The position numbers were made by a program, and so were the translations under genes. A DNA stretch of 64,000 nucleotides from Rhynchopus sp. YZ270_cl-10 (lineage: Eukaryota), in assembly GCA_964035575.1 (NCBI GenBank), contig OZ037836.1:992001-1056000 (forward strand), given 5' to 3'. The notes under the pieces were generated by a model. It did no database searches. It saw nothing but the letters and a program-made list of their open reading frames with translations, and was not told where the DNA came from. Every line of letters starts with the position of its first letter. The stretch's first letter is position 1. This document shows, one piece after another, positions 2,544 to 59,666 of the stretch.

Positions 2544-5089
2544 CTTTGCTTTAAACCCTGAATAGAATGATAAAGAAGTTGAAAAGTGATTAAGATATTA
2601 TTTTCAATCGAAAGATAGAGTTTTTGTCCCCCAGCAAGAAGTTGAAAAGAAAAAATAATGTGGAGATTGCAAAACTGTAGCAACACAACACCGAGGCAAC
2701 TACACTACTCCAACCATTTATCAAAGTGTCAAAAAGCAATGAATCTAATGAAAAGAGAAGGGCAGGCTTCGCGCTAACTTTTGGAAAAAAAATCTGAAAA
2801 ATCGTGTTCCGGGACCAAAAAAACGCACCTCAAATAGCCGTACGTCTGGGGGTGAAAAACCAGAGTTTTGAGGCATTTCCGAGCCAATCCCAGGCTGTGG
2901 TGGGGCATATTCGGAAAAATGGACAAAATTTTAGGGACTTAAATTTTCACAAAATATGAACCCATACTCCTAAAACAGGGGCATTTTCAGTCTGAAAACC
3001 CAAATTCAGATGAAATTGTGGTGTTTTGACTGGGAACAGGTAGCGCCGCAGGCGCACGGTACCCAACTTTTGTCTTTTTAGTTTTCCCTTTTCTTTGCTT
3101 TCTTTTGATTGCACGAGCCGATTGCTCTCCACGGTGGGGTCACATGTGTGCGCAAAAACACTCTAAAGTACTCTTACTATGAACTATGAGATTCCTCTGG
3201 TTCTAGTAAGGAAACCCCGGTCTCAAAAAGTGCGTAAATTTCCTGTGGCTTTTTCCCTCCCAAGACCTGCACGACGGACTAGTTATGGCCATGACAGGTG
3301 ATATGACAGGTGGTGTTACTAGTTAAAAATATGACAGGTGATAATTGAATATTACTTGTCATATGACAGGTGGTACCTGTAAAATGACAGGTGGTACCTG
3401 TCAAAATGACAGGTACCACCTGTCATATGACAGGTGTTTTTGCCGGTGGCTATTGCCTCCCAGGGAAAGGGACTCTCGAATTTTTTTTTTTGCCCCCTTC
3501 AGGGTTTTTTCTAGGATTTTTTTTTTCAGATCTGGGGGGGGACGCAAAAAAACCACCCAAAAAAAAAATTTTTTTCGCAGGTGCAAGCAGGGTTTCCGCT
3601 TATCTTCATGACATTTTTTTCCAAAACCGTGAAGATATGTAATAGGGGTCAATTTTTTTTTTCGCGCTCCGCACAAAAAAGTCCGTTCATTTCACGTAAA
3701 TACGTGATAACGTGGGATGATAACGTACATCAAGAACCAAACCAACCCTTTTTCTTATGTTCCACGGAACTTTCCCTCAGTACAAGAAGAAACAGCGGTC
3801 ATGCTATCAGAACTTTGTGGCGAAGCCACGGTACGCAACATTTCAAAAAAATTGTTACCTAAAATTGAACATTTTTACAGCCAAACTATGGTAGAGGGCT
3901 GTGGGATTCCGCTCATTAAGTTTTGAGTTGTGCCGCAGGCGCACGGTACGCTAGTTTTTTTTTATTTTTGCCGATGCCTTATTCTCACTCTTTGTTCGGT
4001 CCGTCAAATGGTGCAAAGATTGAGTGAATTGGGGGCACGGTCTGAAACTTCACCTCGCTATATCCTCTTCACAATGATGCCAGGAAGGGATAAGACGCGC
4101 TTCGCGTGCGCTCGACTCCCTGCCTCCCCTTTTTTTTCTGGTGCGGGTTACGTACGTGGTGTCCCAAATGGGGGTCTGTGCGGGTGACCCCAACCACCCC
4201 CCATATCCTTTTTTTCCCAAGTCAAAATGCGTCCCCCCCCGGGGGGGGGACGCGTTTCCCCCCAAAATCTGGGGGGGGACGCCGTCCCCCCCCGTAGGGG
4301 GGTCCACGTAGAAGGAATTCCTTAAGGATTTGCTGTCCCAAACCCATTTTTTTGAAATTTAGGTGAAGAAATCCACTAAAAAGGTCGTACCTGGCCGCAA
4401 ATCGCCCTGGGGATCACCCAAATATCCCATTAAACCACCTGACAACCTCTACAGAGACTTTCCTGGTTAAAAAAAATCGATTTTTTGTGAAAAATCTCCA
4501 AAAATGGCGTCACCAGATCGTCACCAAGATGGCCAAAATGCAACACTTTCCAAAAAAATTTTCTAGTCAGACAAAATTCCTTCTAAACACCCGAAAAACA
4601 CCTCGGTCCACATCCGGTGGGGTCCCAGGGGCCCCAAACGCTTAAAAGTACCCTTTTTTTAGTCACTTTTTTGACTTTTTTTGTACCTGAAAACCCCCAA
4701 AAAAGTGCCAAGGTAGTCGGAATGGTGTCCAAATACCCAGGAAAATGTCCCCCAGACCCCATGTAGGGTGAAAAATAGCATTTCGAGCACTTGGGAGGGT
4801 TTTATAGGCCATGCAACACTTTTGCAACACTTTCGCAACGGCTATGCAACGCCTAGCAGAAGACCACTTATTTACCAAAAAAAAAATAATACCAATTCAT
4901 TCAAAACACCAAAAAACCACCTCGGTCCACCTCCAATGAGGTCCCGAGGTGGAAATGTGTGGATTTTGCAGCTTTTTGGGGTCCCTGGGGGTTTTTTGAG
5001 GGTGTTTTTGTGTCTGCAACGCTTAAAATAACGGTATTTTCCCCCATCCTTTTGACGTATTTCGCACCCAAAATAAAAACCTTAAAAGG

Positions 5090-5627
5090 CGTGTTCAGGC
5101 AGTCGCAGAAGTGTCTAAATCCCTCTGAACTGCCTGACAGCCCTCCCGAGCTGTGGAAAATCGTACTTGCAACACTTACTGGGGCTTTTTGGTCCCTGAA
5201 AATGACAACGTACCCTGTGTCTAAGTGCAGTAAAGCCTTCCTTGCCTCCTCCTATGACCAATGATTCGTGCGAATCCGTTGTCGGTGTCCTTGACCAAGT
5301 TGCAAGCCACCACGAAAGGAGCCAGCACCCCGACAACACCAACTCACTGTCGCTGGAACCTAGACGTCCTCTACAGTCTAGGTTGGGTTCCGTCTCTCTC
5401 AAGGGAAGAACTTGCCACAGCACACACCAAAGCGCACCACAAAGGCAGGTCCATGCAAAGCACCCAGAAGTAGCAACTTGAAAAGTACAACACTAAAGTG
5501 CTTCATCTCTTCACAAAGACAGAGTTGCGGGAATTTGCGGCAGATTGTGCACCCCTTGACGGCGAAGACACCGGTACGATGAATAAGGAGCCTCTGGTCG
5601 CTATGCTGTCTCAGTGAGCAGTACAGG
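5090..5627 (+). pseudogene. Decayed transposase-like C-terminal fragment ending in a SAP/HeH-like motif
   Basis: Frameshifted pieces read PPMTNDSCESVVGVL (resembling the catalytic-E region of DDE transposases) and LHLFTKTELREFA..TGTMNKEPLVAML*. Confidence 0.35.
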
Positions 5628-57896: not shown

Positions 57897-59666
57897 GTTG
57901 TTTACACATCTTACACGTTGCAACGTCTTCCACGTTGCAATTTACACCTCTTACACGTTACACGTCTTACACGTTACACCTCTTCCACGTTACACCTACA
58001 CGTTACACGTCTTACACGTTACACGTCGTACACATTCGTCTAGCCCGTTGCACTTTTTTTTTATCGATTGATTAATAAAGCACAAGATTTTTGCCATCCC
58101 CTCCCTATTTTTTGGTCTCTCGGAAGCAAGGAACCCCACAATAAATAAAACACCCCCCCTTAAAAAATAGAGCGTAGTGTGCATCCTCGGGTGTCTACAC
58201 TACACTACGATTTCTAAAGCTACAACACCTCTACTTTTTTTGAAATGAGGGCAGTCTCTTAACTGCAATCTCCAAAACCCCTTCTTAGCATGTAGCCGTG
58301 TATGGTGTATAGTACCTTGATGCGGACTACCCCTTTTAAGGCTATTTTCTTCCTAAAAGTTGCTCTGAAGGGTTGAGGACGCAGGGACGTCTTCCGCAGT
58401 ACAAAGGCTTCGGCCAACATTGAGTACAGACCTGAATTCTCCCACCTGGTGGGTTTACTCGGCGAATGTCGACACAACAAAAAAAAGTTCAAAGGACTTT
58501 GTTGGTCGCCTTACTCATTTGGATCACAACGGTATGTATATGCTACTCATTACAATGTTAGCCACTTCTATTGCCAGACACCGGGGCAAATAGTAAGTGC
58601 AAGAAAACTGCTTTTTGGAAACCAGGAAAACATGGTGGACACTCCACTCCACGTGCGGGCATGTTTGGCACTTCTGCATGCGTGCAGTATCCAAATGTGT
58701 CCCCGTGGGACCAAAGTGATAAAGATGTGTCCACTGTGTACAGGGAAAAAACTTTGCGCTCCCCCGGACAGTGCACAATTCAACACCCCTTGTGGGTGGT
58801 CTTGTTGCCTTTTGGAACAACAACAATTTTTTTTCACGTTGTTGTATTTTGGCCAGGCATGCTCTTGAAAGCATGACAATTTGATTGCGTATGGACAAAG
58901 CAAAGAACCAAGTATGAATTCTGAGTTGAAGTCTGAGAGATGTTGTGGGAAGGGGAGTTCGCTCCTTTCAACGATGACCTCGTTGTTCTTCATAGGCTTG
59001 TCTTAACCGACCACATAAATAAAATTGTGCCGGCCTCGAAGGAATTCTAAGCACACCCGCGTGGCAGCTAAACACGACTCTCTCTCAATTCAACAAAGAA
59101 GGAATACTTGGTAATTTGTGGAGCACCCGTGCATGAAAATTGTAAAACTTTGCGCCCCACGTTGCCCCAGAACACGGCTTCCTTAGAACCGGTTCTGGCC
59201 CAACGTGGACTGCCTGCTCACCCTTTCCCGGGTGGCTGGCGGTTTTTGGCATAATTTTCGGGCTCCGGCCCCAGCCCCCATTATTAAGATTGGGCGCCCA
59301 TATTGAAATATGGGCGCCCATATCCGAAATATGGGCCACCTTAAAAAATATGGGCCCGTAGCCCATATTTGAAAATGTGCCCACATCCGCCCATATGTGC
59401 CCATATCCGCCCAAATTTACGCCCATATGCCCATATGGGCATATGGGCACATTTTTTTCGCCCATATTGCCCATATTTTTTGGTGCCCATATGGGCGTTC
59501 CATCTATGAAAATACCCACCCTGTACAGTTTGTATGGGCCAGCGCCTTGTCAAAAAAAATCGAAAAATCTCAAAAAAAAAAAAAAAAATTTTTTTTTTCA
59601 CAAGTGTTTTTGAGGCCTGCTCACTACACCCTAGGCACCCTTCTGGGACCAAAAAGTCAAAAAAAG

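What the first reader, a model, noticed from the sequence alone, without database searches (positions are those of the whole stretch)
3270..59508. One internal core, many unrelated ends: modular swapping of TIR and subterminal repeats
Seen: the same core (CGCAGGCAGGCCAAAC..., CCCAGGGAGCATAGCTAGTGCAAGAAA..., often next to GGGTACCT repeats) lies inside elements with different ends. These are 3270-9324 (TGACAGGT), 40526-49361 (CCGACAGTCGG), 49611-51396 (TATAGATCTGAC), 27866/35771 MITEs (CTTATACAC), 9865-25360 (piece at ~12420) and 51756-59508 (piece at 58570-58880). In three of them the GGGTACCT array sits at the core/subterminal junction. Inference: repeated capture of a passenger by several transposon families, or rapid turnover of binding-site repeats.
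Basis: partly seen in the sequence, partly recalled or inferred. Interest (0 to 1): 0.7.

Follow-up and report, generated by a model that had tools for sequence, protein, structure and literature searches.

The report
Abundant repeat riding unrelated transposon ends
In a marine protist's nest of jumping genes, pieces of one 1.3-kb non-coding repeat sit inside several DNA transposons with unrelated ends, most likely because it is a very common repeat that gets copied in as passive filler, a variant of known passenger capture rather than a new mechanism.

Summary
A non-coding core (49882-51147 in E3) is shared, colinear and in one polarity, by TIR elements whose arms are unrelated and whose ends and target duplications differ (CMCT-like, hAT-like, TA-type). 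E2/E3 share 1.35 kb at 94.7% gap-free identity; E1, two MITEs and E6 hold 270-600 bp spans; E5 holds only about 45 bp; one more piece lies at 38694-38928. The core tree disagrees with end type, so gradual turnover of ends is rejected for E2/E3. In contigs of public runs the core lies far deeper than E3's ends, E2's right end or E2's transposase (a hint, not a copy number), and it starts at one position under three different flanks. No TIR, TSD, Rfam family, reading frame or two-sided covariation was found for it. Other passengers abut the arms of E2 and E6 in the same way. Best reading (0.55): Pack-TIR-like filler capture from an abundant donor repeat. Self-mobile element (0.22) and selected cassette (0.12) stay open; no genome was available. 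Host is a diplonemid. Precedents: coral CMITEs, fungal TET/JBP passengers.

The parts
3270..9324 (.). E1, non-autonomous TIR element, CAC...GTG termini, 2-bp TG duplication, TGACAGGT subterminal repeats; inserted into a short GGGTACCT run (9326)
3448..3462 (+). 15-mer GGCTATTGCCTCCCA, 12 bases inside E1's left arm; resembles the start of core block A
   Evidence: 2 matches in window, 0.08 expected
8244..8490 (+). core block A in E1
   Evidence: profile 94-383, E 1e-55; 90-91% gap-free to E2/E3
8865..9209 (+). core block B/C and (GGGTACCT)x3 in E1, 11 bases from the right arm
9865..25360 (.). E5, CATAGATGG termini (as E6), imperfect GAAACC duplication; holds (AGTATACAC)n, (AGTAC)n and a 406-bp satellite
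12414..12461 (-). 41-47 bp of core block B in E5; weakest carrier
   Evidence: 97.6% over 41 bp to M1; E 5e-5
27866..29164 (.). M1, MITE with CCTAC termini and TA duplication, interrupted by a 641-bp CAG-ended element (28517-29157, 8-bp duplication)
27972..28226 (-). core blocks B-C in M1, ending at GGGTACCTGGG
   Evidence: profile 651-927, E 1e-62
35771..36418 (.). M2, paralogous MITE (part of a segmental duplication with M1); core B-C at 35877-36126 (-)
40526..49361 (.). E2, CMCT-like element, CAC...GTG termini, 2-bp CA duplication supported by a paralogous empty site
40677..42145 (-). (GGGTACCT)x23 array and full core in E2, downstream of the transposase stop and abutting the left arm
42240..42278 (+). 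palindrome TAGTG..CACTA between E2 transposase stop and core; weaker look-alikes at 58170-58205 (E6) and 38040-38097
   Evidence: z -6.0 RNA, -7.0 DNA; nhmmer E 0.088 and 0.0033
42347..44583 (-). E2 transposase in two frames (a 639-aa relative P0001 is in the database): YSDG, GDH, CTMC, C-terminal zinc fingers
46728..49176 (-). second passenger in E2, homologous to 60702-62685, ending 8 bases from E2's right subterminal repeats
49609..51398 (.). E3, non-autonomous, 157-bp TIRs 99.4% alike, TA duplication (TACAC termini by the paralogous empty site; CAC termini with TA or TATA not excluded)
49784..51147 (+). E3 interior: 15-mer (49784), core A-B-C (49882-50705), internal GGGTACCTGGG (50695), block D, (GGGTACCT)x4 (51113-51147)
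51756..59508 (.). E6, CATAGATGG termini, 6-bp AAAATA duplication, hAT-like transposase 55479-57896 (+) with an inverted duplicate
58544..59160 (+). three colinear, diverged core blocks in E6, downstream of the transposase stop, about 135 bases from the right arm; no GGGTACCT

Best explanation
The core is a non-coding repeat, likely very abundant in this genome, that has likely been copied repeatedly as passive filler into DNA transposons of unrelated families, probably by template switching during repair of a gap or stalled fork inside an element (Pack-TIR-like capture). A cut-and-paste element needs only its arms, so anything between them is replaceable and fillers end up against the subterminal repeats; the commonest donor is captured most often; the GGGTACCT run would be a preferred switch point. 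Shown: shared colinear core, unrelated arms, discordant core tree, common boundaries, other fillers abutting arms. Inferred: genome-wide abundance (from contig depth), direction of transfer, repair mechanism, role of the octamer. The donor family is not identified; an E1-like family is one candidate.
For: Arms unrelated while E2/E3 cores are 94.7% identical. Block B tree puts E2 with E3 and the MITEs, away from E1. Contig depth: in run X5 single contigs have depth 112.7 on core D, 14.3 on E3's TIR and 2.16 on E2's transposase; all five runs laid show the same direction. Core blocks are the most multi-copy dispersed sequence in the window beside 260-350. General mosaicism: E2's right arm abuts a different passenger and E6's left arm abuts the 202-bp repeat of its own flanks; further modules are shared among E1, E5, the MITEs and 38609-38689. 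No coding signal: 48 substitutions split 17/15/16 by codon position, 5 of 11 indels not multiples of three; three ORFs over the core gave no Pfam hit. E1's subterminal unit shares GGTACCTG with the octamer (11 of 1000 shuffled octamers do as well). Precedent: PMC8277862 (passages), PMC12730594 (section 25).
Against: No parent locus was seen: no genome is held and five collection scans were empty. Microhomology is found for 1 of 6 arms only. Shared boundaries (5' start at 8244/49882/42053/58553 under different flanks; the same 15-mer just inside the left arms of E1 and E3) are more regular than random capture predicts and fit a unit with its own ends. All carriers point the octamer side at the nearest arm, and in both transposase-bearing elements the core lies downstream of the stop in sense orientation, behind a similar palindrome. 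In animal Pack-TIRs breakpoints skew towards the element interior (PMC8277862), not the arms.
Confidence: 0.55

Rival explanations
1. The core is a self-mobile non-autonomous element (SINE-like with an octamer tail, or Helentron/HINE-like with microsatellite and hairpin) that nests in TIR elements; inserting into an arm-only MITE would place it against subterminal repeats on both sides.
For: Depth far above flanking ends; sharp rise at about 49880 with E1-type and a third flank seen as loose ends in runs X5 and X10; E1, M1, M2, E2, E3 end at GGGTACCTGGG with different 5' starts, and D plus a second array looks like a 3' extension; 15-mer at both left junctions; hairpins in block A.
Against: No TSD around any of 5 boundary pairs tested and no inverted termini; E6, E5 and the 38.7-kb piece lack the 3' end, and depth is not 3'-enriched; no Rfam hit; no subTIR pair; the strong palindrome lies outside the shared boundary and is absent from E1 and E3; 6 of 7 pieces of 200 bp or more lie inside TIR elements.
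Confidence: 0.22
2. The core is a selected cis-acting cassette (3' processing or expression signals for a host that co-transcribes genes, or a transposition enhancer) that unrelated transposons gain and keep next to one arm.
For: Stop - palindrome - core - arm order in both E2 (CMCT-like) and E6 (hAT-like); block A is 90-91% conserved between E1 and E2/E3 while spacers do not align; the three stem changes in E1 block A keep G-U pairs on the sense strand and two break pairs on the other; CMITE authors propose such a role (PMC2872659, passages).
Against: 0 of 36, 0 of 12 and 0 of 8 predicted pairs show two-sided change; most 120-nt windows fold no better than shuffles and the strong windows do not coincide among E1, E3 and E6; different carriers keep non-overlapping blocks (MITEs only B-C, 38.7 kb only A); two transposase-bearing cases only; palindrome polarity differs between E2 and E6; core orientation is mixed relative to the host genes.
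Confidence: 0.12
3. The elements descend from one ancestor and the subterminal repeats and TIRs turned over quickly, the octamer being a slipped relic of E1-type repeats.
For: E1 and E2 both have CAC termini and 2-bp duplications; E1's unit contains GGTACCTG; E1 and E3 share the left 15-mer.
Against: E2/E3 cores 94.7% alike with no arm similarity; E1 and E2, the two most similar end types, are the most distant cores in block B; E6 and the MITEs have other target duplications and E6 an hAT-like transposase. It can at most explain an old E1-like donor.
Confidence: 0.08

Closest known systems
Pack-TIRs / transduplicating TIR elements (PMC8277862; passages read)
   Same: Foreign filler between intact arms; gap-filling or fork-stalling template switch; local donors; microhomology at some junctions.
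   Different: There the fillers are mostly single-copy host sequence, median 224 bp, one carrier family each; here one repeat of up to 1.3 kb recurs in at least five end types. Parent locus not identified here.
Coral CMITEs (PMC2872659; passages read)
   Same: Internal region more conserved than the TIRs across families; origin unknown; transduplication or a role in transposition proposed.
   Different: CMITEs are about 100 bp with a 75-base core and one TTAA duplication (piggyBac-like); here the core is much longer and crosses 2-bp, TA and 6-bp duplication types.
Fungal TET/JBP passengers in 11 transposon lineages (PMC12730594; passages and section 25 read)
   Same: One passenger passed passively among superfamilies, with no termini or TSD of its own, often at similar positions.
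   Different: That passenger is a protein-coding gene with a proposed benefit; this one is non-coding with no shown function.
DINE-1/HINE and pearl/DTC84 modular elements (PMC4067079, PMC3879986; passages read)
   Same: Conserved core next to a microsatellite, hairpins, divergent flanks, high copy number.
   Different: No subTIR pair, no TT or AA flanks, no tandem core repeats here; the carriers have true TIRs and TSDs.

Membership tests
Pack-TIR (carriers E1, E2, E3, M1/M2, E6) | TIRs on both sides with a target duplication | tested here: met
   E5's duplication is imperfect
Pack-TIR (carriers E1, E2, E3, M1/M2, E6) | Interior derived from an identifiable parent locus elsewhere | not testable with these tools
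   no genome; collection scans empty
Pack-TIR (carriers E1, E2, E3, M1/M2, E6) | Microhomology at breakpoints | tested here: inconclusive
   1 of 6 arms (E1, 8 bp, 11/1000); the other five at chance
HINE/Helentron (core) | 11-15 bp subterminal inverted repeats near both ends | tested here: not met
   best inverted match between the core's first 120 and last 200 bases is a 10-bp A-rich word away from the ends
HINE/Helentron (core) | 3' stem-loop a few bases from a T-rich end | tested here: inconclusive
   palindrome 42240-42278 followed by a T run, but about 190 bp outside the shared boundary and absent in E1 and E3
HINE/Helentron (core) | Microsatellite near one end | tested here: met
   GGGTACCT arrays
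HINE/Helentron (core) | Insertion in TT with paralogous empty sites | not testable with these tools
   needs the genome
SINE / non-autonomous non-LTR retroposon (core) | Simple-repeat 3' tail shared by copies | tested here: inconclusive
   5 of 8 pieces end at GGGTACCTGGG, at two different positions; E5, E6 and 38.7 kb do not
SINE / non-autonomous non-LTR retroposon (core) | Flanking target duplication | tested here: not met
   5 boundary pairs: only 4-5 base words or the carrier's own repeat
SINE / non-autonomous non-LTR retroposon (core) | RNA-derived head or ribozyme | tested here: not met
   Rfam 0 hits at gathering score, best E 2; a family absent from Rfam is not excluded
SINE / non-autonomous non-LTR retroposon (core) | 3' end shared with a partner LINE | not testable with these tools
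   no genome
CMCT clade (E2) | 5'-CA..TG-3' termini and 2-5 bp TSD (PMC12730594) | tested here: met
   CAC...GTG, CA duplication, empty-site paralogue
CMCT clade (E2) | C(2)C and H(3-4)H motifs after the second D | tested here: inconclusive
   GDH189, CTMC208, HRFPH223, HSMQH378 by pattern only; Atlas look-alikes at 0.92 include a set with Plavaka on 28% of members; no Pfam transposase hit; model unusable
CMCT clade (E2) | Phylogenetic placement of the transposase | not tested
   no relatives found; representative search never left the queue
hAT6-like (E6) | 6-bp TSD (hAT6 per PMC12730594) | tested here: met
   AAAATA on both sides
hAT6-like (E6) | hAT transposase | tested here: inconclusive
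   Atlas look-alikes 0.90-0.92, 6 of 10 listed clusters with the hAT dimerisation domain; CVGH and RWNS motifs (motif meaning recalled); no Pfam hit
CMITE-like | Internal region more conserved than TIRs across families | tested here: met
CMITE-like | One TSD type, small uniform size | tested here: not met
   TG, CA, TA, AAAATA; 0.65-15 kb

The most novel reading that the evidence does not exclude
The core is a portable non-coding cassette with fixed ends (15-mer or AGTCAGTCAC start, GGGTACCT finish) that DNA transposons of unrelated superfamilies in a trans-splicing protist acquire behind their transposase gene because it supplies 3'-processing, expression or transposition-enhancing signals, with whole arms swapped at the octamer: a DNA-transposon counterpart of SINE central domains.
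Probability: 0.12. Interest if true: 0.7.

Novelty: new variant of a known kind. Interest (0 to 1): 0.38.

Why it matters
If it is passive filler, it is a clear example that interiors and ends of DNA transposons evolve separately, which misleads repeat classification by interior similarity, and it adds likely CMCT- and hAT6-type elements to diplonemids (the passages of PMC10161547 that I read name only TATE, MULE and Helitron; its supplements, not read, may list more). If it is a selected cassette, it would show how cut-and-paste elements express themselves in a host whose genes are co-transcribed in clusters, and would make the open question about conserved MITE interiors (PMC2872659) testable.

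Tried and rejected
Whole genome: none held. Exact-pattern scans: metagenome contigs twice, viral contigs twice, genome contigs once, all 0. No RNA holder listed among the 24 runs; no statement on expression. Parts without contig cover (E2 transposase in X10) are not used as evidence. Rfam: nothing. Coding origin: rejected. Conserved RNA fold: hairpins exist (49945-49995 z -5 as RNA) but no two-sided covariation in 3-4 sequences; too few sequences to decide. AlphaFold of P0001 without alignment: pLDDT 31, not searched. PDB sequence search: no transposase hit. Representative-protein search: queued, never returned. GGGTACCT as target site: true for E1 (9326) only; the MITE-edge matches are coincidental. 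Fanzor/omega-RNA-like reading (PMC3627910, search listing only): rejected, since 100-250 bp of arm separates the core from the end, and the 15 ORFs scanned against Pfam gave no such hit. Earlier scan notes on this genome or sequence: none. Literature searches for a non-coding interior shared across superfamilies returned only CMITE and Pack-TIR as close cases; subscription journals are mostly not searched.
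Full report
Setting. The window is eukaryotic. The PEMT gene at 1143-2597 (PF04191) has its best named hit in Diplonema papillatum at 55%, behind five unnamed transcriptome or assembly proteins at 55-70%, so the host is inferred to be another diplonemid. [quoted passage not shown] No genome is held, so all element anatomy comes from the window.

The elements. Termini and duplications: E1 3270-9324 CAC..GTG with TG; E2 40526-49361 CAC..GTG with CA; E3 49609-51398 TACAC with TA (paralogous empty site at 39815-39880; CAC with TA or TATA is not excluded); M1/M2 CCTAC with TA; E5 and E6 CATAGATGG, E6 with AAAATA. 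E2 encodes a transposase-like protein with GDH..CTMC and zinc fingers whose Atlas look-alikes include Plavaka-bearing clusters; termini, TSD and motifs fit the CMCT clade as defined in PMC12730594. E6's protein looks hAT-like, and 6-bp duplications define hAT6. Both assignments are leads: Pfam and PDB gave no transposase hit. Arms of different families are unrelated.

The core. E2 and E3 align over 1384 columns at 88% with gaps, 1169 of 1235 gap-free. A profile of the two finds E1 (two blocks), M1, M2, E6 (three colinear blocks over 600 bp), a fragment at 38694-38928 and 47 positions in E5; the reversed window gives none. Block B identities: E2/E3 98%, E2 or E3 to MITEs 91-93%, E1 to all 80-82% (tree, five copies, E5 and E6 left out as too short). 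So the two elements with the most similar ends have the most distant cores, and two elements with unrelated arms have nearly identical ones. This needs exchange, not drift.

Boundaries. On the 3' side E1, M1 and M2 stop at GGGTACCTGGG, equivalent to 50695; E2 and E3 continue through block D to a second array. These stops lie 6-12 bases from each family's own subterminal repeats. On the 5' side, E1, E2/E3 and E6 homology begins at the same motif (AGTCAGTCACTGCTATTGCC in E2/E3). CTATWGCC occurs 6 times against 1.84 expected, four at this start and two in a 15-mer found only 12 and 17 bases inside the left arms of E1 and E3. I found no duplication or inverted termini for the core.

Abundance. Twenty of 24 listed runs hold part of E3. 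I laid five of them. Summed contig depth per bin in X1: core 0.75-1.7 million (49918-50953), E3 TIR bins 41-128 thousand, E2 right-end bin 32 thousand, E2 transposase 0.9-2.3 thousand; X2 has the same order; X5 single contigs 112.7, 14.3 and 2.16 for core D, E3 TIR and transposase. X5's transposase contig differs by 4 letters and 9 gap letters over 1.8 kb, so it is the same or a very close organism. The tool warns that these sums are no copy number, and short contigs inflate them, so I take only the direction: E2 and E3 ends likely account for a minority of core copies. Depth rises at about 49880; among the 24 loose ends shown per call (of 529 and 1057), X5 has E1's flank at 49881 and X10 a third flank at 42052.

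What the core is not. Rfam gives nothing. Substitutions show no codon pattern and indels break frames. Hairpins exist in block A and E1's three stem changes are G-U compatible on the sense strand, but no pair changes on both sides and most windows fold like shuffles. HINE and SINE tests fail on subTIRs and TSDs (membership table).

Is abutting the arm special? No. E2's right arm abuts a different passenger, homologous to 60702-62685, within 8 bases, and E6's left arm abuts the 202-bp repeat into which E6 itself inserted. Three more short modules are shared among E1, E5, the MITEs and 38609-38689. The whole nest is mosaic, and the core is simply among its most repeated pieces. For E3 and the MITEs, whose interior is mostly core, adjacency is trivial.

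Mechanism. Most likely (0.55) template-switch filling of elements that need only their arms, drawing on an abundant donor, as for Pack-TIRs (PMC8277862). The octamer as switch point is inferred from position; sequence microhomology is seen only for E1 (11 of 1000; one of six tests). The regular boundaries keep a self-mobile unit open (0.22). The order stop - palindrome - core - arm in both transposase-bearing elements keeps a selected cassette open (0.12), but rests on two cases, and the E6 palindrome match is weak (E 0.088). Turnover from one ancestor is least likely (0.08).

Novelty. Shared interiors under different TIRs are known within one superfamily (CMITE) and coding passengers across superfamilies are known (TET/JBP). 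A kilobase non-coding interior crossing 2-bp, TA and 6-bp duplication types did not come up. Two unchecked notes from this scan describe similar core/end swapping in bacterial mini-elements; they are analogies only. Verdict: real, a new variant of known passenger capture, interest 0.38.

Noticed in passing
window 53040-58062: E6's transposase region is present as a head-to-head inverted duplication (2449 columns at 95%, centre near 55470-55560); the minus copy is frameshifted. At 95% identity a simple read foldback is unlikely.
   Followed up: partly
window 12979-24159: 406-bp satellite inside E5; all 27 full units are identical. Very recent amplification or assembly collapse/expansion.
   Followed up: partly
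window 11390-12174: Perfect (AGTATACAC)34 and (AGTAC)94 arrays lie in E5 about 240 bp beyond the block-B piece, on the side where other carriers have GGGTACCT; all three units contain GTAC or GTATAC.
   Followed up: no
window 42121-42320: Contig depth stays high in this bin in X1, X2 and X5 but not X10 although it dips near 42110, so the TAGTG..CACTA palindrome region may be a separate abundant module.
   Followed up: partly
window 59510-61981 and 47456-49405: Long ORFs sharing a repetitive C-terminal half; by eye the first has REL-endonuclease-like and OTU-protease-like motifs (recalled; Pfam gave no hit).
   Followed up: partly
window 25523-30324 and 32294-37583, 63755-64000: Tandem segmental duplication of an 805-aa cyclase-like gene (label recalled; no Pfam hit), the MITE and a ubiquitin + BspA-LRR gene; the first copy is truncated by a deletion and a third partial copy starts at the window end.
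   Followed up: no
window 28517-29157: 641-bp CAG-ended element with an 8-bp duplication nested in M1's right TIR, absent from M2.
   Followed up: yes
window 7480-7874, 24333-24978, 28315-28400, 38609-38689: Short GC-rich palindromic modules (GCGCCGCAGGCG, GCTCGC repeats) shared among unrelated elements in different order.
   Followed up: partly
window 51461-51581: Inverted pair of (TTTTGTGGAA)4 arrays between E3 and E6, probably another tiny MITE.
   Followed up: no
window 45340-46483: Further minus-strand ORF pieces inside E2 upstream of the transposase, no Pfam hit; possibly a second, spliced gene of the element.
   Followed up: no
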